From assembly GCA_003141455.1 (NCBI GenBank), contig PLMA01000067.1, positions 85,850-149,849 on the forward strand: a stretch of 64,000 bases of DNA, read 5' to 3'. Made by a program: the position numbers and the translations under genes. The stretch is from Chloroflexota bacterium. GTDB lineage: Bacteria > Chloroflexota > Limnocylindria > Limnocylindrales > CSP1-4. Of the stretch, positions 24,351 to 48,509 are shown piece by piece. The stretch's first letter is position 1, and each line of letters begins with the position of its first letter. Below the pieces are notes generated by a model. It saw only the letters and a program-made list of their open reading frames with translations, was not told the origin of the DNA and did not search any database.

Positions 24351-24362
24351 GAACGCGCGTTC
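24351..24362. promoter_or_regulatory. LexA (SOS) box, Gram-positive/Chloroflexi type
   Basis: Perfect GAAC-N4-GTTC (GAACGCGCGTTC) just upstream of the ruvB -10. Confidence 0.75.
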
Positions 24363-36249: not shown

Positions 36250-36606
36250 ATGGATCCGAATGCGAACCCCAACCCACGAGCCGACGAGCCCATCGCCTGG
36301 CGCGCCGTCCCGGAAGACGTGGAGGTGCGCTCGGACGGCCAGCCGGTCGGGACGCTGTACGACCTCCTCGGTTCCCACGAGGAAGACATCTTCCACGGCA
36401 TCGTCGTGAAGCTCCGGTCGGGGTCTCGCAGAGTCTTTGTGCCGGCGGACGACGTCGTCCTCCTGACGGCCAGCCACGTGGATGTGTCCCTGAGCGCGGC
36501 TGAGATCGGCGCGTTGCCCGAGCACACGGAAGAACGAGGGTTCGGTCTGGGGATGGTCGGGCTCTTCCGCAAGCATGTCGGCTGGACCAGGGAGAAGGAC
36601 CGCTAA
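36250..36606 (+). CDS. PRC-barrel/DUF2171-like hypothetical protein
   Basis: IAWRA......V..DG..VG.L..LLG....DIFHG.VV......FVPADDV; GAGGAG SD. Confidence 0.7.
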   Translation: MDPNANPNPRADEPIAWRAVPEDVEVRSDGQPVGTLYDLLGSHEEDIFHGIVVKLRSGSRRVFVPADDVVLLTASHVDVSLSAAEIGALPEHTEERGFGLGMVGLFRKHVGWTREKDR

Positions 36607-36674
36607 GCTGCCGGCCTCACCCAGGCGCTCACGACGCAGCGGGCCGCCCTCCGGACGCAGCGGTCGCGCAGGGT

Positions 36675-36741
36675 TCGTCGGCCGATTGGGGCGAGAGGGT
36701 TGGGCGACGGCTGAGCTTCATTTGCCCGTATGTGTTCGGGG
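36675..36741 (-). repeat. 67-bp dispersed repeat, copy B
   Basis: Ungapped 54/67 match to 35467-35533. Confidence 0.85.
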
Positions 36742-36916
36742 TGGTCGAGAGCTACCTGGCGAGCCTTGGCCAGGGGTAGCTGCCCCACCCTGTTTGCTGA
36801 TCTTGGGAGTCCTTCGGTCATCCGATTGGACTACCATTCAGGGTAGGGGTCGGCGTCGCCACGTTGCGGCGGCCCGGCGACACTGGCTCGATGTCAACCG
36901 CGAAGACCACAACCGT

Positions 36917-37378
36917 CTCCTTTCGATCACCTTCGTGGCCCCGAGCAATGGACCATCGGCTCACGCCATCTTCGATGTGACCGGCTATTTCACCCCCGAT
37001 ATGAGCGGCGCCACCTACGTCCCGCTGACCCCGACCAGAGTCCTCGATACCCGCAACGGCACCGGCGGTCTCGGTGGTCCCTTCACCAACCATGCCGCCC
37101 GAACCTTCACCGTCGGCGGGGTTCCTGCAGGTGCCATCGCCGTCACCGGCAACCTGACCGTGACCGGGCAGACGAGCAGTGGCTACTTCTCCATCGGCCC
37201 GGTCGCTACGGACAACCCGGGCAGCTCGACTCTGAACTTCCCGGTCGGTGACGACCGGGCCAACGCGGTGACCGTCGCCCTCGGTGGCGGTGGCACCCTC
37301 TCGATCACCTTCGTGGCTCCGAGCAGCGGCCCCACGGCCCAGGGGATCTTCGACGTGACCGGCTACTTCGCGCCATAG
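36917..37378 (+). pseudogene. C-terminal remnant of a repeat-domain surface protein
   Basis: LSITFVAPS.GP.A..IFDVTGYF occurs twice around one PTRVLDTR...NLTV...TLNF unit; no credible start or signal peptide. Confidence 0.7.
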
Positions 37379-37466: not shown

Positions 37467-38792
37467 ATGACCAAAGACATGATCGACCTCACCGCGCCCG
37501 TGGAGCGCGCCTTCCTCGTCGCCGTGGACACGGGCGACGACCCCGGCTGGACGGCCGAGGAGTCGATCGTGGAGCTGGCCAGTCTGGCCGACACCGCCGG
37601 CGCGGAAGTCGTCGGCGCGGAGTGGCAGAACCGCCGCCACGTGGACCCCAACACCTATGTCGGCAAGGGCAAGGTGGACGAGCTGGTCGCCGCCAAATCG
37701 GAGACCGGCTACACCCTTCTCGTCGCCGATGACGAGCTGTCGCCCGCCCAGCAGCGAACCCTGGAAGAGGCGGTCAAGACCAAGGTCATCGATCGGTCGC
37801 GTCTCATCCTGGACATCTTCGCCCTGCACGCCCAGACGCATGAGGGGCGCCTCCAGGTGGAGCTGGCCCAGCTCGAGTACCAGCTGCCGCGCCTCACTCG
37901 CCTCTGGACGCACCTCTCGCGCACCGGCGGCGGCATCGGCACCCGCGGTCCCGGCGAGTCTCAGCTCGAGACGGACCGGCGCATCGTTCGCGACCGAATC
38001 AAGAAGCTCAAGGAGCGTGTGGATCAGATCGGGGAACAGCGGCGCACCGCCGCTCGCGGCCGCGACCGTCGCCTGATCCCCACCGTGGCTATCGTCGGTT
38101 ACACGAACGCCGGCAAGTCGACGCTCCTCAACGCCCTCGTCGGCCAGGAGGTCGTGAAGGCGGAGGACAAGCTCTTCGCCACCCTCGATCCCACCTCGCG
38201 CCAGGTGAAGCTCGGCGACGGCCAGACGGCGATAGTCACCGACACGGTCGGTTTCATCCACAAGCTCCCGCACCAGCTGGTCGACGCGTTCCGCGCCACC
38301 CTCGAGGAGGTGACGCGCGCCGACGTCCTGCTCGAGATCGTGGACGCATCGGACCGTCATTTCGCCGAGCACCGGGCCACCGTCCAGACGGTTCTCGCGG
38401 ATCTTGGAGCCGGGGACAAGCCGCGCCTCGTGACCTTCAACAAGGCCGATCTCATCGAGCCCGCCGCGAAAGACGGCGAGACGCCAGGTCCCGCCATCGC
38501 GGGCACGGTCCTGATCTCGGCCGTGACCGGCTATGGGCTGGAGACCCTGAAGGCCGAGCTGTCCGCCCTGCTGGCGTCGCTGTGGGTGGATGTCGACGTC
38601 GCGGTTCCCTACAGCGCCGGCGAGCTCCTCGCACGGGTCCGGGAGCGGGGGACCGTAGAGCTCGACTACCGACCGTCCGACGTCCGGGTCCGCGGGCGAA
38701 TCAGCCCGCCTCTCGCGGGAGAGCTGGAGACGGTCGCGGCCAGGTGGCGCGAAGCCGGGCGCACCGACAACGGGGCGGCTCCGGACGCCTGA
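37467..38792 (+). CDS. hflX: GTPase HflX
   Basis: ELASLA.TAG, YVGKGK, LDIFA.HA...EG.LQVELAQL.Y, GIGTRGPGE, VGYTNAGKSTL, DTVGFI; TATCCT lies 8 nt upstream. Confidence 0.98.
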   Translation: MTKDMIDLTAPVERAFLVAVDTGDDPGWTAEESIVELASLADTAGAEVVGAEWQNRRHVDPNTYVGKGKVDELVAAKSETGYTLLVADDELSPAQQRTLEEAVKTKVIDRSRLILDIFALHAQTHEGRLQVELAQLEYQLPRLTRLWTHLSRTGGGIGTRGPGESQLETDRRIVRDRIKKLKERVDQIGEQRRTAARGRDRRLIPTVAIVGYTNAGKSTLLNALVGQEVVKAEDKLFATLDPTSRQVKLGDGQTAIVTDTVGFIHKLPHQLVDAFRATLEEVTRADVLLEIVDASDRHFAEHRATVQTVLADLGAGDKPRLVTFNKADLIEPAAKDGETPGPAIAGTVLISAVTGYGLETLKAELSALLASLWVDVDVAVPYSAGELLARVRERGTVELDYRPSDVRVRGRISPPLAGELETVAARWREAGRTDNGAAPDA

Positions 38793-38848
38793 CGCTGCCG
38801 GCCGCTCACGTCCAGCAGGCGCACCCCGGACGTGAGCGACTCGACGCC

Positions 38849-38992
38849 TTACAGCTGGTACAACTCGGCCGAAGGAGACCCGCCGCCGGCTATCAGGATC
38901 CGGCCGTCGCGCAGGAGCGTCGCGGTCTGGTCCATGCGAGCAGCGGCCATGGCGTGGGCCGGACTGAAGGTACCGGCGCTCGGGTCGTACAC
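38849..38992 (-). pseudogene. Last blade of a Kelch/galactose-oxidase-repeat protein
   Basis: VYDPSAGTFSPAHAMAAARMDQTATLLRDGRILIAGGGSPSAELYQL*, matching the final repeat of 62042-63613; no in-frame start. Confidence 0.8.
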
Positions 38993-39214
38993 CCCGCCTG
39001 CACCCCCATCAACAGGGCCGGGACGGGTGGCCCTTTGGCATTGTAGCCGTGGCCGAACCGTTCGATCCTCTACTCCCTGGGCCTTGGAGCAGTCCTTCGC
39101 GAGGCGGGCGGCGCCTCTCCACTAGTTGCTCCCGGCAGGGGAGGGCTGATCCAGAACGGACGTTCTCATGCAATCGCCGGAGATCGACCCTCGCGACCAC
39201 CCGTGTTGGCAGGC

Positions 39215-39298
39215 CGTGGATAAGTAGCGAAACAACCGTTTCCCCAACCCAAACTGGTGGATAAGCCACTATCGCGGCAGGGGCCAGAAGCCTAGATT
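39215..39298 (+). promoter_or_regulatory. Two DnaA-box-like 9-mers plus TAGATT -10 (module 1)
   Basis: CGTGGATAA 39215-39223 and GGTGGATAA 39256-39264 (one mismatch each from TGTGGATAA); TAGATT 39293-39298. Confidence 0.6.
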
Positions 39299-39305
39299 CT
39301 GTCTT

Positions 39306-39643
39306 GCCCGGAGGGGCCAGCGAGATCATCACCGACTCAGCGGTTTCGACGGAAACGGTGTAGCGATCTACCGGAAGGTCCAGGGACCCGCAAGGGTTTC
39401 TGAACCGGAAAGCAGATCGTGAACCGCGGAAGTCGGAATGTAGAGGGTCGGTGGCAGTCCCGGCAGTGGCCGGAGCGCGGTCCGCCGTTTGAGCGAGGAG
39501 TTTTCGGACCCCTTGTTCGCGGAGGTCGAAGCGGCCGGTACACGCGAGACCGCAGTCTGATCGAACAGGTTCCTTCGGGCGTTTTCGTGTGTCCGGCGAG
39601 GGCGTCTGCCGCCGTGGCGCCCGGGGCACCGTCAGCCCGGGCA
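39306..39643 (+). ncRNA. Candidate ~340-nt structured ncRNA, family unknown
   Basis: Nested stems CCGACT/AGTCGG, GCGGTT/AACCGC, CGATCT/AGATCG, CAGGGACCC-GCAA-GGGTTTCTG, ACC-GGAA-GGT, TGTTCG/CGAACA, CC-TTCG-GG; 5'/3' ends pair; no credible ORF. Confidence 0.6.
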
Positions 39644-39719
39644 TGCGAGACCCGCCGAGCAGGGTAGGGGACCCAGGAGGTATCCTCGGCCGCGACCCGC
39701 CCGTGCAGCAAGGAAGGCG

Positions 39720-40478
39720 ATGGCGCTCCCCGGCCCCACCATCTGGTTCATCGTCCCGACATACAACGAGCGCGAGAACGTCGGCCCCATCACCGACGCC
39801 ATCCTGGAGACCGTTCCAGAGGCTCACATCCTGATCGTGGACGACGGATCGCCCGACGGCACAGGCGATCTGGCCGACGAGATGGCCGGCCGTAACCCGG
39901 CGATCGCCGTGCTCCACCGCCAGGCCAAGCAGGGCCTCGGGCGCGCCTACGTGGCTGCGTTCAGAGAGCTGATCGGCCGCAACGCGGACATCGTGGTCCA
40001 GATCGACGCCGACTTCAGCCACCCCGTCCGGTATCTGCCCTCGCTCCTGGAGCCCCTGCGCACGGGCAAGGCGGACCTGGTTCTGGGTTCGCGCTACGTG
40101 AAGGGCGGCCACATTCCGCGCTGGAACATCCTGCGCCGCCTGGTCAGTCGGGGCGGGAGTGTCTTCGCCGGCGTCGTCCTCTTGCTCCCGTTCCGAGATC
40201 TCACGGGCGGCTACAAGGCCTGGTCCGCGAGCGCGCTCAAGGAGATCGATCTCGACCGGCTTCACGCAGGCGGCTACGCCTTCCAGATCGAGACCACTTT
40301 CCGCGCCCGCCAGGGCGGCGCCAGCATCGTCGAAGTCCCGATCACGTTCGAGGAACGCAGGGCGGGCCAGTCGAAGATGAGCATGAACATCTTCATGGAG
40401 GCGTTCCTGCTCGTCCTGGCCCTGCGAGTCACGAACCTCCGCCGCCGCAAGCGCACCCGACCGGGGTCCGCCGCCTGA
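39720..40478 (+). CDS. Polyprenol monophosphomannose synthase-like GT2 glycosyltransferase
   Basis: IVPTYNERENV, VDDGSPDGTG, KQGLG.AY, IDADFSH, GSRYV.GG, DLTGGYK, GYAFQIE, EVPI.F.ERRAG.SK. Confidence 0.93.
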   Translation: MALPGPTIWFIVPTYNERENVGPITDAILETVPEAHILIVDDGSPDGTGDLADEMAGRNPAIAVLHRQAKQGLGRAYVAAFRELIGRNADIVVQIDADFSHPVRYLPSLLEPLRTGKADLVLGSRYVKGGHIPRWNILRRLVSRGGSVFAGVVLLLPFRDLTGGYKAWSASALKEIDLDRLHAGGYAFQIETTFRARQGGASIVEVPITFEERRAGQSKMSMNIFMEAFLLVLALRVTNLRRRKRTRPGSAA

Positions 40479-40555
40479 CGTCGCAGGCCCCCGAGCACGC
40501 CCGTTCGACTCGCCTCGTGGTCCGCCGCGTGCCGGATGGCCACCTGTGCACGAGC

Positions 40556-40639
40556 CGTGGATACCACCCGTCACGAGGGCGACCAGTTTCCAAACAGGTG
40601 GATAAGGCGGTTGGCATCGGACGCCCGGCGGACTAGATT
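40556..40639 (+). promoter_or_regulatory. Two DnaA-box-like 9-mers plus TAGATT -10 (module 2)
   Basis: CGTGGATAC 40556-40564, GGTGGATAA 40597-40605, TAGATT 40634-40639; spacing identical to module 1. Confidence 0.6.
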
Positions 40640-40646
40640 CGTTCTT

Positions 40647-40778
40647 GCCCGGAGGGGCCACGGACACCCGAACGACTCGATCGATTCTAGGATCGGCCGA
40701 ACGATGCGGGGTCGCGGTTCCTTCGGGCGCTCCATGTCCGTTCCAGGGCGGCCCGCCGTAGCCCGCACGCCGGCGGGC
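40647..40778 (+). ncRNA. Candidate ~130-nt shorter paralogue of the 39306-39643 RNA
   Basis: Same 5' GCCCGGAGGGGCCA and GGTTCCTTCGGGCG; stems CGGACA/TGTCCG, CGACTC/GGGTCG, CGATC/GATCG, GCCCG/CGGGC. Confidence 0.5.
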
Positions 40779-40844
40779 CGCTTGCTGCGCGCCGGCCTCG
40801 TCCACTTCTTACATCACTGTTGCGCCCGGTGATATCATCCAAGC

Positions 40845-41090
40845 ATGATACGAACGCAGATCTCCCTGACCGAGAAGCAGATGAACCGCCTCCGCCGCGC
40901 GGCGAGCGCTAGGGGAGTGTCCATCGCGTCGGTGATACGCGAGGCCGTGGATCGTTCAGTGCCTGACGAAGGGGCTGACCGGCTGGCGCGGCAGCAGCGA
41001 GCCTTCAAGCTTGCCGGCACCTTCTCGTCCGGTCACAGCGACACCTCCGAGCGCCATGACGAGATTCTCGCGGAAAAGCCGCGCTGGTGA
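40845..41090 (+). CDS. vapB: CopG/RHH antitoxin (VapB-type)
   Basis: MIRTQISL......L...A...GVS.A.VIREAVD, G.F.SG..D.SERHD; overlaps the PIN gene by 4 nt; ATCAC/GTGAT inverted repeat at 40813-40833. Confidence 0.88.
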   Translation: MIRTQISLTEKQMNRLRRAASARGVSIASVIREAVDRSVPDEGADRLARQQRAFKLAGTFSSGHSDTSERHDEILAEKPRW

Positions 41091-41479
41091 GCGTATTCGT
41101 CGACACGAGCGCCCTCTACGCGCTGCTCGACGCTGCCGACGCCGGCCACGAGCGCGCGTTGCGCGGGAGTGAACTCATCCTGGGCGAGGAACTACTCACG
41201 CACAGCTACGTGATGGTCGAGGCGGTATCGCTTGTCCGGCGCCGACTCGGAGCCGAAGCGGCGGCCCGCCTCATCGACGACATGCTGCCCGCAATCAAGA
41301 TAGTCGACGTGGACGAGGCTCTCAGAGGACGCGCGGTCGCAGCGTTTCGCGCGGCCGTCTCCTCGAGCATCTCTCTCGTTGACCGGACGAGCTTCGAATT
41401 CATGCGCACGCTCGGCATCTCGCGCGCCTACGCCCTTGACCCGGACTTCGAGGCAGAGGGCTTCGAGCTAGTCAGCTGA
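41087..41479 (+). CDS. vapC: PIN-domain toxin
   Basis: VFVDTSALYA, E, SLVDRTSF..M, ALDPDF. Confidence 0.92.
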   Translation: MSVFVDTSALYALLDAADAGHERALRGSELILGEELLTHSYVMVEAVSLVRRRLGAEAAARLIDDMLPAIKIVDVDEALRGRAVAAFRAAVSSSISLVDRTSFEFMRTLGISRAYALDPDFEAEGFELVS

Positions 41480-42138: not shown

Positions 42139-42222
42139 TCCCGACTGAGCGTCAGGCAACAGTCGAGGTCTCTAGGCCTCCCATTGTGCTGCCGATAAGA
42201 TAGGTTATGTCCGTTACTTGAA

Positions 42223-43053
42223 CTACAGGACCTCTTTGCCAAAGACGCGGTCGATGGGCAGATATCGGACGGGATCGGTCAGGCGGGGACCTGCTTGCCT
42301 TAGCCACGAGTCGAACCACACGTACCACGCCAACAAGGCGTTCTCGCCGAGGTCGTACGTCTCAGCTGGTTTGGGCATAAGAGCCTCGAGGCTTGGCCCG
42401 TGAGTGGCGTGGAGACGCGCTCTTTGCGGGCTGCCTGGTTGACCGAGCTTGGCGAGCTCGAGGTAGGTGCCTGCTCGCGCCACCACTCGATCAGGCACAA
42501 CAAGAAGATCAGGCTGTTCCGATCTGGGACATTCCTTGAGGGCTTGCGTGTAGTTCGCCTGGAAAGTCGCCGAAGCGGGACAATCGAATCCCCAAATCAC
42601 GAACAGGGATTCCGCGAGGGGCTGCAACTGGGCTGGCGCGAGGCAAAATCGCCGTTGTAGTCTTTTGAACGCACGTCCCTTCTTGATGGCATCCGCCATC
42701 TCCTGAGGCGACAGCATCGTCTTGACCTCCACAAGGCCGTACACAGCCTCAACGGGCCACAGCTCGTTTCGACTGCCGCCGTACAGCGGTGCGTTGTTGA
42801 GGACGTCCACGACGAGTAGATCGGCTTGACTAGAGAACTCCCCTTCAGAAGAGATCACCATTCCTGATCGAACGCCAAACTTCCGCGGCAGGTGCTGCTC
42901 AAGGAACCGGCCCACGATGTCCTGGCGGTTTTCACCGGCCGACAGATGGTGAGAAGCAAAGTCGCGACGGATCGCAGCAGACTGGTTGCGCATCTCTGCG
43001 GCGACCCCGGCCAGGTACTCCGGCAGGATTGCTGACTTAGGGGCACTGTTCAT
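42223..43053 (-). CDS. DUF6602-like PD-(D/E)XK nuclease-fold protein
   Basis: GE.RQ.IV.RFL..HLP..FGV.SG.VI...G..S.QAD..V.D, PVEAVYGLVEVK; visibly more AT-rich than the core genes. Confidence 0.75.
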   Translation of the reverse strand: MNSAPKSAILPEYLAGVAAEMRNQSAAIRRDFASHHLSAGENRQDIVGRFLEQHLPRKFGVRSGMVISSEGEFSSQADLLVVDVLNNAPLYGGSRNELWPVEAVYGLVEVKTMLSPQEMADAIKKGRAFKRLQRRFCLAPAQLQPLAESLFVIWGFDCPASATFQANYTQALKECPRSEQPDLLVVPDRVVARAGTYLELAKLGQPGSPQRARLHATHGPSLEALMPKPAETYDLGENALLAWYVWFDSWLRQAGPRLTDPVRYLPIDRVFGKEVL

Positions 43054-43604
43054 ACCCCGTACACCTTCAGGATGTCGTCGCCGTAGTGGTTGATCACTTT
43101 GATGGCGATGCAGCCGGAATCCGGGACTCGGAACGGGCGCGAAACCGTTGAGTTCAGCGAGGACCAGGCGGCCTCGTCGATGTCGGCACGGAGGGCGCGG
43201 CGGAGCTTGTCGTATGGGTCGTCATCGCCGAGGAAATATGCGTGGCGGACGAAGAACTGGCGGTTGTCGTAGGCGGTATCTATGAACCAGCAGGCGATGT
43301 CGGCGGTGGATTGGGGGACTATCTCGCCGTTGGTGGGCTTGTAGGTGTCGAGGCCGCGGATTTCGACCTGGAGCTGGCCCTCCCCTACCCTGCGGATGTC
43401 GACGTCGGGCTGGCCGAAGATGGAGAACAGGTTGCCGATGCGCGTCTTCTTGAGCAGGTCTTCGCCCATGCTGAGGTCCGGGTTCATTCGAACGGCCAGG
43501 ACGGTCAGGTTGCCGAAGCGCATCGCCTTGCCGGTCTCCTCGTCCGCACGGGCGTCGAACGCGAAGCCGCAGACATGACGGCCGATACCCTGTGCATCGC
43601 TCAA
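43050..43604 (-). pseudogene. C-terminal domain only of a type III-like site-specific DNA methyltransferase (Mod)
   Basis: CGFAFDA, RMNPDL.M.EDLLKKT..GNLF..FGQPD, DIACWFIDT.YD...FFVRHAYF, IAIKVINHYGDD; catalytic half absent; TTG 43604 comes from the repeated leader. Confidence 0.8.
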
Positions 43605-43619
43605 GGCCTTCCCCCGCTT

Positions 43620-43645
43620 GCGTGACGGTGCTCCCCTACTGTAGC
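43620..43645 (-). repeat. 26-bp promoter/leader repeat, copy 1
   Basis: GCGTGACGGTGCTCCCCTACTGTAGC (+ strand). Confidence 0.9.
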
Positions 43646-43690
43646 CCCTCGGCGCGGCCCCGGAGAGACCCGACCTGCGGTCGGCCGCGC

Positions 43691-44635
43691 TTACGGCCGG
43701 AACCTGGCCTCGCCGTGCCAGCTGAGCATGTCGCGCGAAGGCTGCTCGAATGCGGCTTGCGGCAATCGGATTGGGCAACCATCGAGTTCGTAGTACTCCC
43801 GTCCGTTCTCGAACTCCTCGTGGATCCGCCGACTGACACGAACCCGCAGGTCATCGGGCGTCACCGTCATGTAGCCGAGATCGAAGAGGGTATGCAGGTC
43901 GGATCGGAGCAGGAGCCCGTTCGAGACCTCGTGGCGGCCGACGAGGTTGTAGGGCTTGATGTGCGCGGCCTCCAGCACCGGCAGCGTCCGCTCTCCCGTC
44001 ACGACGCATCGACGGTCATAGGCATCCGTGACCATGACGCGAAATGCGCCCTGGCCAAGCCGGGGGCGAACGAGGAGTGGGCTACCGTACGATGCCGCCG
44101 GGCCGTCACTGGTCGCATGCGCGAGATCCGCGATTGGCTGCGCGGAACTGACTACCGCCAGCGCCTCCAAGACGCGCAGCCAGAGGCGCTGGCCCTCGCC
44201 GATCTCGGTGTCGTATGTCTTGCCGCGCGTGAGATTCGAGGACCAGTCGGCGGGCGGCTCGATCCACATCTCCCTTGGCAGGAAGAATGGCTCGACGAGG
44301 ATCGAGGCGCCAATCTGCGTGCTGAGCGGATCCACAGCCCTTTCGCTATGCCTGCGAACCAGTTGGAGGAATGCGTCGTAGGAGGCAGCACCGTTGGACT
44401 TACCAAAGGCGTCCCAAGCGAGCTGCGGTGTCAAGGTCGAGTAGTGCGCAAACCGCGCGCCGCCGACGATGTATCCGCCGTTGCGGACGTGGAGCTTGAA
44501 GAGCCACGGTGCGCCTTCGGGCAGAGTGACCGGGCGCACATTGTTGGGCTGCCAGAAGTTCACCTCGTCGATAGGTGCGACCGAAGTGAGGTAGCTGACC
44601 CAGGAAGAGTCTGTGTTCGCGACCCAGTACCGCAC
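43691..44635 (-). CDS. HNH endonuclease with N-terminal putative DNA-reader domain (type IV restriction-like)
   Basis: YWVANTD..W..YL...DEVNFWQP; RLGQGAFR..V..AY...C.VTG...LEAAHI.P...H.V.NGLLLRSDLH.LFD. Confidence 0.88.
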   Translation of the reverse strand: MRYWVANTDSSWVSYLTSVAPIDEVNFWQPNNVRPVTLPEGAPWLFKLHVRNGGYIVGGARFAHYSTLTPQLAWDAFGKSNGAASYDAFLQLVRRHSERAVDPLSTQIGASILVEPFFLPREMWIEPPADWSSNLTRGKTYDTEIGEGQRLWLRVLEALAVVSSAQPIADLAHATSDGPAASYGSPLLVRPRLGQGAFRVMVTDAYDRRCVVTGERTLPVLEAAHIKPYNLVGRHEVSNGLLLRSDLHTLFDLGYMTVTPDDLRVRVSRRIHEEFENGREYYELDGCPIRLPQAAFEQPSRDMLSWHGEARFRP

Positions 44636-44762
44636 TCGTGGAGTCTACGAGGGCGCGGACTCTCGCGGAATACCCACTTGTGCCTGGCCCGCGAAGGCGC
44701 TCCATCGATGTGCCGCCCACTACTCACCCAGCTTCGGCGTGCTCGGAGCGATGAAGCCGCCT

Positions 44763-44787
44763 GGGGTCCACGTAGATCATTCTGGAC
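44763..44787 (-). pseudogene. Possible eroded Mod catalytic motif (VQ-MIYVDP)
   Basis: GTCCAG-A-ATGATCTACGTGGACCCC resembles KVQMIYIDPPY with a 1-nt insertion; very short. Confidence 0.3.
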
Positions 44788-44872
44788 CTGGATGTGGATC
44801 GGGATCGCCGGCACGACGAGCGCCCCCGACGGAGGTCGGCGCGGCCGGCTTGCCAATTCTCCTGGCCAACGC

Positions 44873-45283
44873 TTACTTCCCGCTTACCTTCGCTGCCGTC
44901 GCATCCATGATCGTTTGGGCGCCTGCCACTGCTTCCTCGGCTTCCGTCCACGTTGGCTCGTCCGGATCACCCAGCTCGGTTACGTATCGCACGCCTCGAG
45001 CCATCGCGCTGAGCGACGCCAGCGTCTTCATCGACACGCCGAGGTTCAGATCCGCAGGCAGCATCGACTTGAGGGCAACCAGGTTGTGATCGCGCGGAGG
45101 TTCGATCCCCTCGGCCACTGGCACCGCCTTCATCGACTTCTCGGCAGCCTGCTGAGCGTGGAAACCAGCTGCCCAAGGCTCCATGTCGGGCCCCCTCTTC
45201 AGGATGACCCTGGCCAGCGCGAGGTCCGTCTTGGCCTTGGCAAGCCAGAGTTCCGCGACCGCAAGCTGCTCAGCTGCGCGCAT
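44873..45283 (-). CDS. HEPN domain protein
   Basis: WLAKA..DL..A....FHAQQAAEKSMKA...PPRDHNL..L; coupled to the MNT gene. Confidence 0.88.
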   Translation of the reverse strand: MRAAEQLAVAELWLAKAKTDLALARVILKRGPDMEPWAAGFHAQQAAEKSMKAVPVAEGIEPPRDHNLVALKSMLPADLNLGVSMKTLASLSAMARGVRYVTELGDPDEPTWTEAEEAVAGAQTIMDATAAKVSGK

Positions 45284-45815
45284 AGATGGTGACCCCCTCC
45301 CGAAGGGCCGGGCGCAGCGTGGATCCAGCGAGATTGGCGCCTCGCGCAAGCTGCTCCGGCGTGGCAACGATCACGTCAGTGGACAGCGGGATACCCTGGA
45401 GCGCCTGGTAGATGGCTACCTCGATGTCTCGTCCTCGCTGCACGCCGGACACAACGATCAGCAGGTCCGCGTCGCTGTCGGGACGAGCCTCCCCCCGGGC
45501 CTGGGAACCGAAGAGGATGATCTTCTCCGGCTTGAAGCCACGGACGATGCGGCGCTTGATCAAGGGCAGCCACTCGATTGCTTGTTGCGACAGACGCAGC
45601 TTCTGCTTCTTCGCTCCCCTCTTTGGCCCGGAGCTCGCCCGGTAGTCTTCCACCTCAGCGCGTCTCCAGATTCGGCCGTTGGCGACGATGGCCGCCGGCG
45701 CGGGAAAATCAGGCCTGGAGGCCCAGTCGCGGATGAAGTTGGGCACGTTGACGCCGTAGATCTCGGCAGCCTCCTTGGTGCCCAGGAGCTCCATTGGAGT
45801 CTCGCGCTCGCTCAT
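45270..45815 (-). CDS. AlpA/excisionase-like HTH fused to a minimal nucleotidyltransferase (MNT)
   Basis: N-terminal LLGTKEAAE..GV......RPDFPAP......GRIW...EV; C-terminal IILFGSQARG.ARPDSDADLL. Confidence 0.85.
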   Translation of the reverse strand: MSERETPMELLGTKEAAEIYGVNVPNFIRDWASRPDFPAPAAIVANGRIWRRAEVEDYRASSGPKRGAKKQKLRLSQQAIEWLPLIKRRIVRGFKPEKIILFGSQARGEARPDSDADLLIVVSGVQRGRDIEVAIYQALQGIPLSTDVIVATPEQLARGANLAGSTLRPALREGVTIYARS

Positions 45816-45821
45816 GTCGTT

Positions 45822-45840
45822 ATGATAGCATCACTATCAT
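45822..45840. promoter_or_regulatory. Inverted-repeat operator over the HTH-MNT promoter
   Basis: ATGATAG-CATCA-CTATCAT; the minus-strand TATCAT lies 6 nt before ATG 45815. Confidence 0.65.
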
Positions 45841-45950
45841 TAGATACACGCCCCCCTCTGCAGCGAGCTCACGTGCGCGCGGACGAGGTTGGCCGCGTCC
45901 CAGGGATCGGTGACTTCCAAGAAGGACCACCGGCCCAGGCCGCCGCGCTC
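45840..45950 (-). pseudogene. Extreme C-terminal remnant of a type III-like restriction subunit (BPTD_3080-like)
   Basis: ERGGLGRWSFLEVTDPWDAANLVRA resembles the GGFGRWAFLEI.DPWD terminus recalled for this family. Confidence 0.6.
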
Positions 45951-46029
45951 TGATAGGAGCAGGTCCCAGCGACCCGGATACCTCTCCAACCAGGCCCGTC
46001 TTGGTTCAGTCGATGCTCGCGCTTGTGCG

Positions 46030-46476
46030 TCAGTGCGGCGAGGGAATCGCCGGCGAATGAGTGGGAATCCCTCGCATTATCACGTCGGTGAGGTACTGGC
46101 TGACGAGTCCCGAGATGGGCACTAGGAAGGTCAGCATGAGCGTGGTGAAGACGATGAAGCAAGCGATCTTGAACGACGCGCTTCTCGCGTAGCCGCGCGG
46201 AAGCCAGGGCGAAAGCAGCACCGGGAGAGCCATAGGGAAGAGATCGGCTGCCCCGATCGCCGCATAGATACCGGGTCCCGAAGTCAGCCCGCCGACGATG
46301 AACCCAAGCCCGATCACAAGCCCGACAGCGCCGCACGCGAGGACCAACCGGTCGAGATGAATACCTCGGGTCCGAGCGGGCTTGCTCTGGACTTCGCGCA
46401 CGGCCGCCAGCCCGAGATCGGATGCGCCGCCGACCATCTCGCGCGTGCCGCGGCAATCCGGGAACTGGGGAATGCA
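46030..46476 (-). CDS. Membrane protein or remnant with a partial topoisomerase-type C4 zinc-finger motif
   Basis: C..QFPDCRGTR lies upstream of the ORF-track start, followed by 3 TM segments; start unclear. Confidence 0.45.
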   Translation of the reverse strand, partial: CIPQFPDCRGTREMVGGASDLGLAAVREVQSKPARTRGIHLDRLVLACGAVGLVIGLGFIVGGLTSGPGIYAAIGAADLFPMALPVLLSPWLPRGYARSASFKIACFIVFTTLMLTFLVPISGLVSQYLTDVIMRGIPTHSPAIPSPH

Positions 46477-46492
46477 GGTGATGCTGAGTAGC

Positions 46493-46807
46493 TCACCGGC
46501 GTTCCTCGGTCAACCAAGTGAGGATCACCAGGGGGATGATGATGACGATCCACGGGATGAAGTAGACCTGGCTCGTGAAATAGGCGGCGAAGTCGCTCAA
46601 GCCCTTCGGCGCCGTCAGCGCGGCCCACAGGCAGAGAACCGGCAACGTCAGCGCCCATATCCCAAGCGCGAGCCGAAGGAACTCGTGCAGGAAGCTGCCG
46701 CTTGGTCGGATGACCGCGTCGAAGGACGCGCCGCAATGGCGACAGGCCTTGTCGCTCGCGGCCACCAGGCCGCCGCAGTTGGAACAGACCCGATCTGCCA
46801 CCCTCAC
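46493..46807 (-). CDS. Zinc-ribbon membrane protein
   Basis: CSNCG......ACRHCG followed by two TM helices. Confidence 0.7.
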   Translation of the reverse strand: MRVADRVCSNCGGLVAASDKACRHCGASFDAVIRPSGSFLHEFLRLALGIWALTLPVLCLWAALTAPKGLSDFAAYFTSQVYFIPWIVIIIPLVILTWLTEERR

Positions 46808-46832
46808 CCCGCTCCTTGTTCGAGACGCGGGT

Positions 46833-47223
46833 TCAATGTACTCCTCCCCTCGCCTGCGGCGTCTCGTCGTGCGTGTCGGCGTCGAAGGCGGCGATCGAGG
46901 CGCGCAGGTTGCCGGCGACCTGCCTGGGGTCCGCCAGGATAGCCCGCAGGTTCAGTCGCGAGGTGTAGTAGGCCTCGATGCCGGTCACGGTCTTACAAGA
47001 CGGGGCCGACGGTCTGCACGGTCAGGGTCTTGCCGCGGGCGAGGACCTGGGCTTTGGTGGGCTCGAGGACGCAGTCGAGCCGGCGGAGCAGGACGAGCGG
47101 CAGGATGACCCGGCCGTACTCGGACTGCTTGTGATCGCCGCGCAGCAGATCGGCGATGGCCCAGATGAGGCCGGCGTGGTTGGTGGGCGCGGCGTGATTC
47201 GTGGCGGCGCTGCCCTCGGCCAA
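46833..47223 (-). pseudogene. hsdM: Type I R-M methyltransferase HsdM, N-terminal fragment with frameshift
   Basis: [36 protein letters not shown], a +1 shift at ~46995, then TGIEAYYTS.LNL..ILADP..VA.NL; truncated after ~120 codons. Confidence 0.85.
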
Positions 47224-47240
47224 CTGATACCCCCGGGAAC

Positions 47241-47266
47241 GCGTGACGGTGCTCCCCTACTCTAGC
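47241..47266 (-). repeat. 26-bp promoter/leader repeat, copy 2
   Basis: GCGTGACGGTGCTCCCCTACTCTAGC. Confidence 0.9.
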
Positions 47267-47310
47267 CAGTTGCGGCACGGTTCGAACTGCCCAGCCGGCG
47301 AGCGACAGTC

Positions 47311-47349
47311 TTGACACGCCATCGTCGACGTGTAGCATATGCGCTACAC
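47311..47349 (+). promoter_or_regulatory. Sigma70-type promoter with palindromic operator
   Basis: TTGACA 47311-47316, TAGCAT 47333-47338, GTGTAGC-N6-GCTACAC 47330-47349; AGGAG SD follows. Confidence 0.75.
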
Positions 47350-47361
47350 CAGGAGACAGGC

Positions 47362-47724
47362 GTGAAGACTGAATTCGATCGCGACTTCGATGGCTGGATG
47401 CAAGATCCGGAGTTCGCAGACGGTTACGCCCTGGAGCGCAGGCGGATCGATGCTATCGACCGGATCGTTCACGCTCTGGACGCGGCCCGGCAGGAGCGCG
47501 GCATGACGAAAGCCGACGTGGCGCGTGCTGCCGGTCTCCCCGCGCAATCGGTTCGCCGCTTCTTCACGCAGAGCCCGCAGAATCCCACGCTGTCGGTGAC
47601 TGTTGCCATAGCCTCTGCTGTCGGTCAGCCTTTGATCACGACCGAAGCTGCCGCACCCGTGGAGCGTCGAAGTCCGGCAGCACCGACGAGGGCTACAGCG
47701 CCACGGACCGCGGTCGCCGGCTGA
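47362..47724 (+). CDS. XRE-family HTH antitoxin-like protein
   Basis: FD..M.DPEF...Y..ER.RID.ID.I..ALD.AR...GMTKADVAR......VRR.FT...NPTL. Confidence 0.8.
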   Translation: MKTEFDRDFDGWMQDPEFADGYALERRRIDAIDRIVHALDAARQERGMTKADVARAAGLPAQSVRRFFTQSPQNPTLSVTVAIASAVGQPLITTEAAAPVERRSPAAPTRATAPRTAVAG

Positions 47725-47881
47725 GGTATTCGTCTCCAAGGGCTCGGATCCGCGCGTAGTCGGCCGTGGTGAAGACCGTCAGGTATGGCTTGGTCATGCC
47801 TCCCAGGATGATCAGGGACGGGCCCGGCAGGCCGTTCGCCGCCGTTTGACGCTCCAGAAGGCAGAAGAGCCGGTAGTGGAG
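47693..47881 (-). pseudogene. C-terminal half of a RelE/HigB-like toxin
   Basis: LHYRLFCLLERQ...GL.GPSLIILGGMTKP..TVF...DYARIRALGDEY; in-frame stop upstream, no start. Confidence 0.6.
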
Positions 47882-47940
47882 CCGCCGGCCGCCTCGGGCC
47901 GTAGGTCACGACGCCCCATAGCGTTCACTCAGCCTTGACG

Positions 47941-47960
47941 GGTTATCAGAAGTGATAACC
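47941..47960. promoter_or_regulatory. Palindromic operator upstream of an orphan HTH gene
   Basis: GGTTATCA-GAAG-TGATAACC, directly after TTGACG. Confidence 0.65.
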
Positions 47961-47980
47961 TGCCCCGAGAAAGGGAGCGA

Positions 47981-48328
47981 ATGAACAAGCAGGCCGTGTC
48001 GACCCCGTTCAATCCCATTGGCAGCGAGTTCGCCGCGTCTCGCGAGTTGAGGCGGCGCGACCCTGCGTATGCGGCAGCCGAGGCCGAGTTGGCTCCGATG
48101 GAGGCGCTGGCCAGGCTCTTGATCGCCTACCGCATTGAGCAGGGGCTGACCCAAATGGCTCTCGCCGAGCGCGTGGGCACGAGTAAGACCGCCATCTGCC
48201 GGCTCGAGAGTGGCCAGCACAAGCCTTCGGTGGAGACGCTCGTGAAGATAGGGCGTGCGCTCGGGCAGAAGCTGGTCATTGGCTTTGAGGATGCGTCCGG
48301 CCGGAGGGACGTCGCGACCATTTCTTAG
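47981..48328 (+). CDS. Orphan XRE-family HTH antitoxin (HigA-like)
   Basis: RDP.Y.AAE.EL...LA.LLI.YR...GLTQ..LAERVGTSK.AI.RLESG.H.PS..TL.KI..ALG. Confidence 0.85.
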   Translation: MNKQAVSTPFNPIGSEFAASRELRRRDPAYAAAEAELAPMEALARLLIAYRIEQGLTQMALAERVGTSKTAICRLESGQHKPSVETLVKIGRALGQKLVIGFEDASGRRDVATIS

Positions 48329-48509
48329 TTCGCCGTGGGCCTGAGCAACGCTACGGTGAAGCTGGCCCGGGGCGGGAAGCAGGGCGATCCCTGTGGTCCC
48401 GGCGCGGCGACTCCAATGGTCTGCCTTCGACTGCAGGCTGGCGCGCAGGCAGACGTCCACCGGCAGTCTCCCGCCCATTCGGCCGAAGGCCAACTGGTTC
48501 CCCCGGAGT

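What the first reader, a model, noticed from the sequence alone, without database searches (positions are those of the whole stretch)
39213..40660. Duplicated promoter module with two DnaA-box-like sites at fixed spacing
In both copies the boxes start 41 nt apart (39215/39256 and 40556/40597), and CTAGATTC starts 77 nt after box 1 (39292 and 40633), although the intervening bases have diverged. Conserved spacing without conserved spacer sequence implies a protein-bound architecture. It could be DnaA (cell-cycle) control of the two RNAs or a bipartite origin-like element away from dnaA.
Basis: partly seen in the sequence, partly recalled or inferred. Interest (0 to 1): 0.7.

Follow-up and report, generated by a model that had tools for sequence, protein, structure and literature searches.

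The report
DnaA-box promoter of two abundant RNAs
The duplicated module is the conserved promoter of two small non-coding RNA genes in an uncultured soil and peat Chloroflexota class, and its repeated boxes match, in sequence and in 41-nt spacing, the DnaA boxes of that clade's own replication origin, so the replication initiator probably controls these RNAs; it is not an origin.

Summary
GTGGATA boxes lie 41 nt apart in both copies, and CTAGATTC starts 77 nt after box 1.

CTAGATTC holds the -10 element (TAGATT). Each module is the promoter of a non-coding RNA whose ends pair in the same 13-bp stem:
- RNA1 (39306-39580) is extremely abundant in peat and soil metatranscriptomes. Rfam has no match.
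- RNA2 (40647-40728) is short and weakly detected.

The order hflX-RNA1-glycosyltransferase-RNA2 and both promoters are conserved in 17 Chloroflexota (Ca. Limnocylindria) genomes. Box spacing is fixed at 41-42 nt in 41 modules, while the spacer sequence is free.

Three results favour DnaA:
- Distant relatives carry perfect 9-mers (TGTGGATAA or TGTGGACAA) at box 1.
- A third, weaker box sits exactly 11 nt upstream.
- The clade's own origin, between dnaA and dnaN, uses the same words in a triplet at 0, +21 and +41.

The origin reading is refuted. The modules lack reverse boxes, a DnaA-trio run and an unwinding element, and they are not near dnaA.

DnaA binding and the direction of regulation are inferred, not shown. 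A LexA-type palindrome lies about 150 nt upstream of the RNA1 start.

The parts
37467..38792 (+). hflX GTPase gene, the conserved upstream neighbour of module 1
   Evidence: Pfam GTP-bdg_N, GTP-bdg_M and MMR_HSR1. It lies upstream of RNA1 in 17 of 17 related loci.
39154..39165 (.). LexA (Cheo-box) type palindrome GAACGGACGTTC, 61 nt upstream of box 1 and about -150 from the RNA1 start
   Evidence: One of only 3 perfect GAAC-N4-GTTC sites in the window (expected 0.69). Perfect at this position in 15 of 19 RNA1 promoters. The same word sits on the ruvB promoter at 24351.
39204..39212 (+). Box 0 of module 1, TGTTGGCAG: a degenerate DnaA-box-like 9-mer exactly 11 nt upstream of box 1, in the same orientation
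   Evidence: The mean match to TGTGGAnAA at offset -11 is 4.66 of 8, against a background of about 1.7, over 41 modules.
39215..39223 (+). Box 1 of module 1, CGTGGATAA (8 of 9 to TGTGGATAA), about -91 to -83
   Evidence: Orthologues have GTGGACAA here, and distant relatives have the full TGTGGATAA or TGTGGACAA.
39256..39264 (+). Box 2 of module 1, GGTGGATAA(G), about -50 to -42, ending 5 nt upstream of the -35 position
   Evidence: GTGGATAA is invariant in all 17 promoter-blind orthologues. The -10 hexamer follows 27 nt after GTGGATAAG.
39270..39275 (+). -35 position of promoter 1, TATCGC: a poor match to the consensus
   Evidence: It is in the same register as TTGGCA in module 2. Orthologues read TTCCnn.
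   Evidence: RNA coverage begins at 39304-39306, which is 6-8 nt downstream.
39306..39580 (+). RNA1: a structured non-coding RNA of about 275 nt with a 13-bp closing stem (GCCCGGAGGGGCC / GGUUCCUUCGGGC), followed by a U-rich tract
   Evidence: Summed contig word depth is 1e5-2.5e6 in metatranscriptomes, against 0-16 on the flanking genes. RNAalifold predicts 78 pairs, 11 with compensatory changes. There is no Rfam, tRNA or tmRNA hit.
39720..40478 (+). Family-2 glycosyltransferase gene lying between the two RNA genes
   Evidence: Pfam Glycos_transf_2. It is conserved between RNA1 and RNA2 in 15 loci.
40495..40506 (.). Degenerate copy of the palindrome, GCACGCCCGTTC, 61 nt upstream of box 1'
   Evidence: One mismatch. 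It holds the same position in most RNA2 promoters.
40545..40553 (+). Box 0' of module 2, TGTGCACGA, 11 nt upstream of box 1'
40556..40564 (+). Box 1' of module 2, CGTGGATAC (7 of 9)
   Evidence: Orthologues have GTGGA[C/A/T]A[G/C].
40597..40605 (+). Box 2' of module 2, GGTGGATAA(G)
40611..40639 (+). Core promoter 2: TTGGCA, 17 nt, TAGATT
   Evidence: It is the only consensus promoter match in 38800-41200, and it is conserved in orthologues.
40647..40728 (+). RNA2: an 82-nt hairpin RNA with the same closing stem as RNA1
   Evidence: It is conserved in 13 loci. Metatranscriptome depth is only in the tens, and some contigs run across the promoter, so its start is not verified.
40747..40786 (+). 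G+C-rich terminator-like hairpin after RNA2
   Evidence: Fold prediction and inverted repeat I1.

Best explanation
Each copy is the upstream regulatory region, about 150 bp long, of a non-coding RNA gene. The two genes, RNA1 and RNA2, are paralogues that flank a glycosyltransferase gene downstream of hflX. The arrangement is conserved across Candidatus Limnocylindria (Chloroflexota).

Shown:
- TAGATT is the -10 element, and RNA1 starts 6-8 nt after it.
- Three same-orientation 9-mers of the DnaA-box family lie at fixed positions. Box 0 and box 1 are 11 nt apart, at about -100 and -89. Box 2 is 41-42 nt further on, at about -48, and ends 5 nt upstream of the -35 position.
- The clade's own origin, between dnaA and dnaN, uses the same words with outer boxes 41 nt apart.

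Inferred:
- DnaA binds these boxes and acts as a transcription factor.
- DnaA on box 2 contacts RNA polymerase and activates the promoter. This fits the RNA1 promoter, which has a poor -35 element yet yields a very abundant RNA.
- The upstream pair stabilises binding through DnaA-DnaA contacts on one face of the helix.
- Box 0, the weak site, makes the response sensitive to DnaA-ATP level, so that high occupancy could turn activation into repression, as at E. coli nrdAB.

A LexA-type palindrome about 150 nt upstream of the RNA1 start may add DNA-damage input. The element is not a replication origin.
For: Promoter and transcript:
- The -10 and -35 elements were found by the consensus scan.
- RNA coverage starts at 39304-39306 and ends near 39580, with nothing upstream.

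Conservation:
- A promoter-blind genome scan gave 17 Limnocylindria loci, all with both boxes in register.
- The RNA2 promoter is conserved in the same way.
- Spacing is 41 or 42 nt in 41 modules, and box 2 lies 48-52 nt from the RNA stem.

Identity of the boxes:
- In more distant modules (L068, L069, L091, L092, L104, L110), box 1 is a perfect TGTGGATAA or TGTGGACAA. Extra boxes sit at exactly +/-11 nt.
- Only the seventh base varies (T, C or A), which is the known variable position of DnaA boxes.

The clade's real origin:
- L123 DnaA is 85-89% identical to NCBI Candidatus Limnocylindrales DnaA.
- Nine independent dnaA-dnaN spacers were examined. Eight carry three same-orientation boxes, (T/C/G)GTGGA(T/C/A/G)AA(G/A/C), at 0, +21 and +41. 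They include CGTGGACAAC and CGTGGATAAGG, which are identical to module boxes.

Against: - No binding data exist, and the organism is uncultured.
- The base 5' of GTGGA in box 2 is never T (0 of 41). It is T in 78 of 108 boxes of origin-like control loci, so box 2 always departs from the full 9-mer.
- The module has no middle box at +21.
- Conservation around box 2 extends beyond a 9-mer (AAAC-n2-3-GTGGATAAG), which could reflect another protein or an alpha-CTD contact.
- The direction of regulation is a guess based on position.
- RNA2, whose core promoter is the better one, is barely detected. RNA1 abundance may therefore owe more to RNA stability than to promoter strength.
- Depths come from assembled contigs, which measure expression poorly.
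Confidence: 0.6

Rival explanations
1. The boxes bind another clade-specific transcription factor, for example a winged-helix response regulator that recognises direct repeats at 11-bp phasing. The likeness to DnaA boxes would then be a coincidence.
For: Direct repeats 11 nt apart (box 0 and box 1) also suit tandem response-regulator dimers. Box 2 never has the T of the full DnaA 9-mer (0 of 41). The conserved A-tract and the trailing G extend the site beyond nine bases.
Against: Box 1 is a perfect canonical DnaA 9-mer in 8 of 9 distant modules. The same 10-11-mers, including forms with a non-T first base, occur in the clade's origin triplet. The 41-nt spacing equals the outer spacing of that triplet in 8 of 9 origins.
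Confidence: 0.2
2. The boxes do bind DnaA, but their main role is on DnaA itself, by titration or nucleotide-state control in the manner of datA, DARS or the B. subtilis DnaA-box clusters. The strong promoters alongside would then modulate occupancy rather than be regulated by it.
For: The module has origin-like box words and spacing away from the origin. E. coli DARS1 lies in the uvrB promoter region, which also has LexA sites (my own knowledge; see also PMC6015884, listed). Here a LexA-type palindrome accompanies the boxes.
Against: Each module has only two or three boxes. Box 2 keeps a rigid 27-nt distance to the -10 hexamer in 41 modules, and the modules are linked exclusively to this RNA family. 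Both facts point to promoter function.
Confidence: 0.1
3. The two modules form a second or bipartite replication origin away from dnaA.
For: Only the presence of DnaA-box-like words in two places 1.3 kb apart.
Against: The clade has a canonical origin between dnaA and dnaN, with forward and reverse boxes, a GATGATGAT trio-like run and an AT-rich patch. The modules have none of these features. The lowest local G+C is 50% over 60 nt. The cumulative GC skew shows no turn at 39-41 kb. No dnaA or dnaN gene is in the window. Each module is locked to a -10 element and a transcript.
Confidence: 0.02
4. No dedicated protein binds. The boxes would be UP-element-like contacts for the RNA polymerase alpha subunit, or DNA-shape elements of a strong stable-RNA promoter.
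For: The A/T-rich parts of the A-tract and box 2 lie near -54 and -43, which are the usual alpha-CTD positions (my own knowledge; layout).
Against: The invariant G+C-containing core GTGGA, the repeat of that core at about -89 and -100, and its identity with the origin boxes cannot be explained by alpha-CTD or shape readout.
Confidence: 0.05

Closest known systems
E. coli nrdAB promoter (DnaA boxes in the promoter region; DnaA activates at low occupancy and represses at high DnaA-ATP)
   Same: DnaA-family 9-mers lie in the promoter region. A mix of strong and weak sites could give a two-way, level-dependent response (PMC8203912).
   Different: Here the targets are two non-coding RNAs. The boxes lie in one orientation at +11 and +41-42 nt. 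The layout copies the clade's origin triplet and is conserved across a class. Binding and effect are untested.
B. subtilis DnaA-box clusters and DnaA-regulated promoters outside oriC (sda, ywlC, yydA, trmE and others)
   Same: Conserved groups of DnaA boxes lie away from the origin, in intergenic regions next to promoters (PMC8203912).
   Different: Those sites control protein-coding genes or replication itself. None is known to drive an abundant structured RNA, and none has this fixed 41-nt geometry.
E. coli uvrB promoter region with DARS1 (DnaA plus LexA sites)
   Same: DnaA-type boxes and a LexA-type palindrome occur together in one regulatory region (PMC6015884, listed; DARS1 from my own knowledge).
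   Different: DARS has three boxes, two of them in opposite orientation, and acts on DnaA-ADP. Here all boxes point one way, and the palindrome lies about 150 nt upstream of the transcript start.
Chromosomal origin (oriC) of Candidatus Limnocylindrales, in the dnaA-dnaN spacer
   Same: The box words are the same, (T/C/G)GTGGA(T/C/A)AA(G/C), and the outer spacing is the same 41 nt in the same orientation.
   Different: The origin also has a middle box at +21, reverse boxes, a trio-like GAT run and an AT-rich patch. The modules have none of these, and instead carry -35 and -10 elements and a transcript.
6S RNA and Ms1 RNA (very abundant RNAs that bind RNA polymerase)
   Same: RNA1 is a very abundant RNA of about 275 nt with paired ends, found in organisms that probably grow slowly.
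   Different: RNA1 does not match the Rfam 6S model even at E<=10. It has no sequence likeness to S. coelicolor Ms1 and none of the Ms1 gene neighbours (HAD-IB hydrolase, oxidoreductase). The predicted fold is a multi-helix junction, not a rod with a central bubble.

Membership tests
DnaA box / DnaA-regulated promoter | 9-mers matching the TTATCCACA family (read here as TGTGGAYAA) with at most one or two mismatches | tested here: met
   In the window: 39215 CGTGGATAA, 39256 GGTGGATAA and 40597 GGTGGATAA (8 of 9 each), and 40556 CGTGGATAC (7 of 9). Box 1 is perfect (9 of 9) in 8 of 9 distant modules.
DnaA box / DnaA-regulated promoter | The same words are used as DnaA boxes in the organism's own origin | tested here: met
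   Nine Limnocylindrales dnaA-dnaN spacers carry (T/C/G)GTGGA(T/C/A/G)AA(G/A/C) boxes, including CGTGGACAAC and CGTGGATAAGG.
DnaA box / DnaA-regulated promoter | Position fixed relative to the core promoter and conserved across species | tested here: met
   41 modules have box 1 to box 2 at 41-42 nt and 27 nt between box 2 and the -10 hexamer.
DnaA box / DnaA-regulated promoter | DnaA binds the site, and transcription changes with DnaA level or nucleotide state | not testable with these tools
   This needs EMSA or footprinting and in vitro transcription or reporters. The organism is uncultured.
Replication origin (oriC) | A cluster of boxes in both orientations next to an AT-rich unwinding element or DnaA-trios | tested here: not met
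   The modules have only 2-3 boxes, all in one orientation. The minimum local G+C is 50% and there is no GAT-repeat run. The real origin of the clade has all of these features.
Replication origin (oriC) | Linkage to dnaA/dnaN, or a GC-skew switch | tested here: not met
   No dnaA or dnaN gene is in the window. The cumulative skew shows no turn at 39-41 kb. A 64-kb window tests skew only weakly.
Sigma-70-type promoter | A -10 hexamer TAnnnT 6-8 nt upstream of the transcript start, and a -35 hexamer 16-18 nt upstream of the -10 | tested here: met
   P2 reads TTGGCA-17-TAGATT. P1 has TAGATT with a weak -35 (TATCGC). The RNA1 5' boundary is at 39304-39306. The RNA2 start is not verified.
datA / DARS-type DnaA-regulatory DNA | A box cluster with a defined mixed orientation plus IHF or Fis sites, acting on the DnaA nucleotide state | tested here: inconclusive
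   All boxes point one way, unlike the DARS core (my own knowledge).
LexA (SOS) box, Gram-positive/Chloroflexi type | The palindrome GAAC-N4-GTTC overlapping a promoter | tested here: inconclusive
   The palindrome is perfect at 39154 and in 15 of 19 RNA1 promoters. The same word overlaps the ruvB promoter at 24351. Here, however, it lies about 150 nt upstream of the RNA1 start and no promoter is evident on it.
Ms1 / 6S RNA (for RNA1) | A match to the family model or sequence, the characteristic synteny, and a rod fold with a central bubble | tested here: not met
   No Rfam hit. None of six words from RNA1 and its promoter occurs in the Ms1 paper's sequence supplement. The neighbours are hflX and a glycosyltransferase, not a HAD-IB hydrolase and an oxidoreductase. 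The predicted fold is branched.

The most novel reading that the evidence does not exclude
Limnocylindria couple two structured RNAs to the state of the chromosome. One of them is among the most abundant transcripts in peat and soil metatranscriptomes and belongs to no described family. The promoters reuse the outer-box geometry of the origin (two DnaA boxes 41 nt apart, plus a phased weak site) together with a LexA-type site. DnaA, and possibly LexA, would then set the level of a new class of global regulatory or ribonucleoprotein RNA. This would be the first case of DnaA-controlled abundant non-coding RNAs.
Probability: 0.3. Interest if true: 0.85.

Novelty: new variant of a known kind. Interest (0 to 1): 0.7.

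Why it matters
DnaA is known as a transcription factor for a few protein-coding genes in model bacteria. Here DnaA-type boxes appear to govern two non-coding RNAs across a whole class of uncultured bacteria that are widespread in soil and peat. One of these RNAs is extraordinarily abundant in situ and has no known family.

If confirmed, three things follow:
- Replication-initiator status would be linked to an RNA-based response in slow-growing environmental bacteria.
- There would be a concrete case of origin box geometry being reused for transcription control.
- RNA1 would become a measurable in situ read-out of the physiology of this clade.

The work also locates and describes the chromosomal origin of Limnocylindrales.

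Tried and rejected
1. Actinobacterial Ms1 or 6S RNA. I considered this because of the high G+C content and the very abundant RNA of about 275 nt. I rejected it because the organism is a Chloroflexota member, the sequence shows no likeness to Ms1, the synteny is wrong and Rfam gives no hit.

2. tmRNA, tRNA, RNase P or SRP. ARAGORN found nothing. Rfam found nothing at gathering thresholds and only chance-level hits at E<=10 (sucA 0.7, CC1840 5.8).

3. The argument 'never T before GTGGA, so not DnaA'. This held for the first 17 genomes. It was then weakened by distant modules with perfect 9-mers and by genuine origin boxes of the clade that also begin with C or G. It still holds for box 2, and I report it as evidence against.

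4. A middle box at +21, as in the origin triplet. There is no enrichment at that offset.

5. L073 as a further member of the regulon. Its neighbouring ORFs looked actinobacterial to me from their translations (no search was run), so I dropped it.

6. RNA2 expression. Depth is only in the tens, and some contigs span the promoter, so neither its start nor its level could be established.

7. A regulator gene next to the modules. No conserved DNA-binding gene neighbour was found.

8. Literature searches for an abundant Chloroflexi or Limnocylindria RNA, or for a small RNA under DnaA-box control, found nothing relevant.
Full report
**Observation.** The coordinates are right.
- GTGGATA occurs five times in the window. 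Four of these are the reported boxes at 39216, 39257, 40557 and 40598.
- CTAGATTC occurs only at 39292 and 40633.
- All three anchors share one copy-to-copy offset of 1341 nt. Box 1 to box 2 is therefore 41 nt and box 1 to CTAGATTC is 77 nt in both copies, while the spacers differ.
- The whole-window count of GTGGATA is not significant on its own (expected 2.2). The case rests on the comparative evidence below.

**What the module is.** CTAGATTC contains a -10 hexamer, TAGATT.
- Copy 2 reads TTGGCA-17-TAGATT, the only consensus promoter match in 38800-41200.
- The sequence just downstream, CTTGCCCGGAGGGGCCA, is shared by both copies. It is the 5' end of an RNA and pairs with a second shared block, GGUUCCUUCGGGC, to form a 13-bp closing stem.
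- Metatranscriptome contigs from peat, soil, wetland, ice and bioreactor samples cover 39304/39306 to about 39580. Their summed word depths reach 1e5-2.5e6. Nothing lies upstream of 39292, and the flanking genes reach only 0-16.
- Two contigs carry sequencing-adapter sequence directly at 39313 and at 39580, so those fragments end there.
- The strand is inferred from the promoter, the fold and the U-rich tract after the stem, because contigs carry no direction.
- RNA1 therefore spans 39306-39580 and starts 6-8 nt after the -10 hexamer.
- RNA2 (40647-40728, followed by a hairpin at 40747-40786) is seen only at depths in the tens. Some contigs run across its promoter, so its start is not verified.
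- Neither RNA matches Rfam, a tRNA or a tmRNA.

**Conservation.**
- I scanned species-representative genomes for a word inside RNA1, which makes the scan blind to the promoter. It returned 17 Chloroflexota MAGs labelled Candidatus Limnocylindria or Limnocylindrales, or unclassified Chloroflexi, plus four chance hits.
- All 17 have hflX upstream of RNA1. Fifteen have the glycosyltransferase downstream of it. Fourteen loci, the window included, carry a second module with an RNA2.
- The duplication is therefore old and has been maintained.
- RNA1 is a structured RNA: 78 consensus pairs, 11 of them with compensatory changes.
- RNA2 is an 82-nt hairpin with the same closing stem.

**Anatomy of the promoters** (41 modules). 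Positions are relative to the RNA1 start at 39306.
- A palindrome, tAGAAC-N4-GTTCt, lies at about -150.
- Box 0 lies at -102 to -94. It reads TGTTGGCrG in RNA1 promoters and TGTGCAnGr in RNA2 promoters.
- Box 1 follows after two bases, at -91 to -83. It reads GTGGACAA in most RNA1 promoters, GTGGATAA in this window, and GTGGA[C/A/T]A[G/C] in RNA2 promoters.
- A spacer of free sequence and fixed length comes next. Box 1 to box 2 is 41 nt in 30 modules and 42 nt in 11.
- A short A-tract precedes box 2.
- Box 2, GTGGATAAG, lies at -50 to -42.
- The -35 position reads TTCCnn or TATCGC in RNA1 promoters and TTGGCA in RNA2 promoters.
- The -10 hexamer follows 27 nt after box 2.

**Are the boxes DnaA boxes?** Four lines of evidence bear on this.
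   - Most hits are origin-like clusters from many kinds of bacteria. Many carry a dnaA gene.
   - Seven high-G+C hits are the same module with related RNAs downstream. Three of these lie next to hflX homologues that are 77-88% identical to the window's hflX.
   - Six of these loci hold the distant modules. Box 1 is a perfect TGTGGATAA or TGTGGACAA in 8 of the 9 such modules scored.
   - L069, L091 and L092 carry an extra box at exactly 11 nt.
2. Scoring all modules against TGTGGAnAA shows a third peak exactly 11 nt upstream of box 1. The mean is 4.66 of 8, against a background of about 1.7. Same-orientation 9-mers separated by 2 bp are how weak DnaA sites are arrayed in E. coli oriC (my own knowledge).
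3. Only the seventh base of the box varies (T, C or A). This is the known variable position of DnaA boxes.
4. The clade's own origin uses the same boxes. This is the strongest line.
   - One metagenome hit, L123, encodes a DnaA that is 85-89% identical to NCBI proteins named Candidatus Limnocylindrales DnaA.
   - I fetched seven further independent dnaA loci. Their gene order is jag-yidC-yidD-rnpA-rpmH, then dnaA, then dnaN-recF-dciA-gyrB.
   - With L123 and L079, this gives nine independent dnaA-dnaN spacers. Eight carry three same-orientation boxes at 0, +21 and +41.
   - The boxes read (T/C/G)GTGGA(T/C/A/G)AA(G/A/C). Examples are TGTGGAAAAGG, CGTGGACAACG and TGTGGATAAGG in L149, and TGTGGATAAGG, CGTGGATAAGG and CGTGGATAAGG in L079.
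   - About 200 nt further on come reverse boxes, then in seven of the nine spacers a GATGATGAT(GAC) run; an AT-rich patch follows it in the three spacers I read in full.
   - The module boxes are therefore the same 10-11-mers as genuine origin boxes of this clade. This includes a first base that is not T and the trailing G.
   - The 41-nt box 1 to box 2 spacing equals the outer spacing of the origin triplet.

**Evidence against DnaA.**
- Box 2 never has the T of the full 9-mer (0 of 41). The figure is 78 of 108 in origin-like controls.
- No middle box is present at +21.
- Conservation around box 2 extends beyond nine bases.
- There are no binding data.
- I put the DnaA reading at about 0.6-0.7 and another transcription factor at about 0.2.

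**Not an origin.**
- The modules have two or three boxes, all in one orientation.
- They have no trio-like run and no AT-rich element. The lowest G+C over 60 nt is 50%.
- There is no skew turn at the site.
- No dnaA or dnaN gene lies in the window. Its gene order is ruvB-tgt-recA-recX-rny-ymdB-PHP-miaB-miaA, a stretch of about 2.5 kb with no family match, then hflX-RNA1-GT2-RNA2-vapBC.
- Each module is locked to a -10 hexamer and a transcript.
- The clade's origin is where it would be expected, beside dnaA.

**Likely mechanism (inferred).**
- DnaA on box 2, centred near -46, sits where activators touch RNA polymerase.
- The RNA1 promoter has a poor -35 element yet gives a very abundant RNA. 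This fits activation, as described for high-affinity boxes at E. coli nrdAB (PMC8203912).
- Box 1, four helical turns upstream, and its phased weak neighbour box 0 would add cooperative binding that depends on DnaA-ATP. High occupancy might then repress.
- The direction of regulation is not established, and RNA stability may explain much of RNA1's abundance.
- The upstream palindrome is of the LexA type. The same word overlaps the ruvB promoter at 24351. At -150 its role here is unclear.

**The RNAs.**
- RNA1 and RNA2 belong to no described family.
- I considered the Ms1 and 6S readings and rejected them.
- Some RNA1 homologues lack an 85-nt sub-domain (39360-39446).
- The closing stem shows compensatory changes in distant members. 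L104 has C-G changed to U-A and G-U changed to A-U.
- In most members a U-rich tract follows the stem directly, so the whole RNA lies inside a terminator-like hairpin.
- Their function is unknown.

**Verdict.** The DnaA-control reading is the best-supported explanation but is untested. The origin reading is refuted.

Noticed in passing
window 39306-39580 (+): RNA1 is a structured RNA of about 275 nt with no Rfam family. It reaches summed contig depths of 1e5-2.5e6 in peat, soil, wetland, ice and bioreactor metatranscriptomes, and thousands of variant contigs map to it. It is probably a new and very abundant RNA class of Limnocylindria.
   Followed up: partly
window 39360-39446: Some metatranscriptome contigs join 39360/39361/39369 directly to 39445-39449, skipping 79-87 nt. 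Some RNA1 homologues therefore lack the distal part of the long arm.
   Followed up: no
window 24351-24362, 36532-36543, 39154-39165: These are the only three perfect GAAC-N4-GTTC palindromes in the window (expected 0.69). One overlaps the ruvB promoter (TAGAACGCGCGTTC, then TATGAT, then the ATG). One lies 32 nt upstream of ORF 36575-37378, which has no Pfam match. One lies in the RNA1 promoter. They look like the LexA boxes of this organism.
   Followed up: partly
window 38849-38992 (-): A short ORF with a weak Kelch-repeat match (E 0.007) fills about 300 nt of extra DNA between hflX and module 1. The 17 related loci lack this stretch, so it is probably a gene fragment or an insertion specific to this lineage.
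   Followed up: no
window 40845-41479 (+): A vapBC-type toxin-antitoxin pair (a ribbon-helix-helix antitoxin and a PIN toxin with overlapping stop and start) follows RNA2 directly. It has its own promoter-like TTACAT-17-GATATC just before the ATG.
   Followed up: no
window 42200-48400: An island of lower G+C (62-65%) carries genes of the defence or mobile-element type: DUF6602, an HNH endonuclease, a nucleotidyltransferase, an HsdM N-terminal fragment and an XRE-type HTH protein.
   Followed up: no
L142:5350-5775, L143:5347-5755, L149:5347-5782, L150-L153, L123, L079: This is the chromosomal origin of Candidatus Limnocylindrales, in the dnaA-dnaN spacer. It has a forward box triplet at 0, +21 and +41, then reverse boxes, and in most of the spacers a GATGATGAT(GAC) run like DnaA-trios with an AT-rich patch beside it. 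A dciA gene follows recF.
   Followed up: partly
window 39583-39655 (+): A long G+C-rich hairpin lies between the 3' end of RNA1 and the glycosyltransferase start codon. It may block read-through or regulate the gene downstream.
   Followed up: no
window 40672-40680 and 40697-40705 (RNA2): RNA2 carries the same word, CCGAACGA, on both sides of its central internal loop, forming a symmetric loop. This could be a binding site for a dimeric protein.
   Followed up: no
window 39292-39310 versus L001-L021: In this window, and in L012, the -10 region of the RNA1 promoter reads CTAGATTCTGTC, like the RNA2 promoters. Most orthologues read cCTATTGTTC. This may reflect gene conversion between the two promoters.
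   Followed up: no
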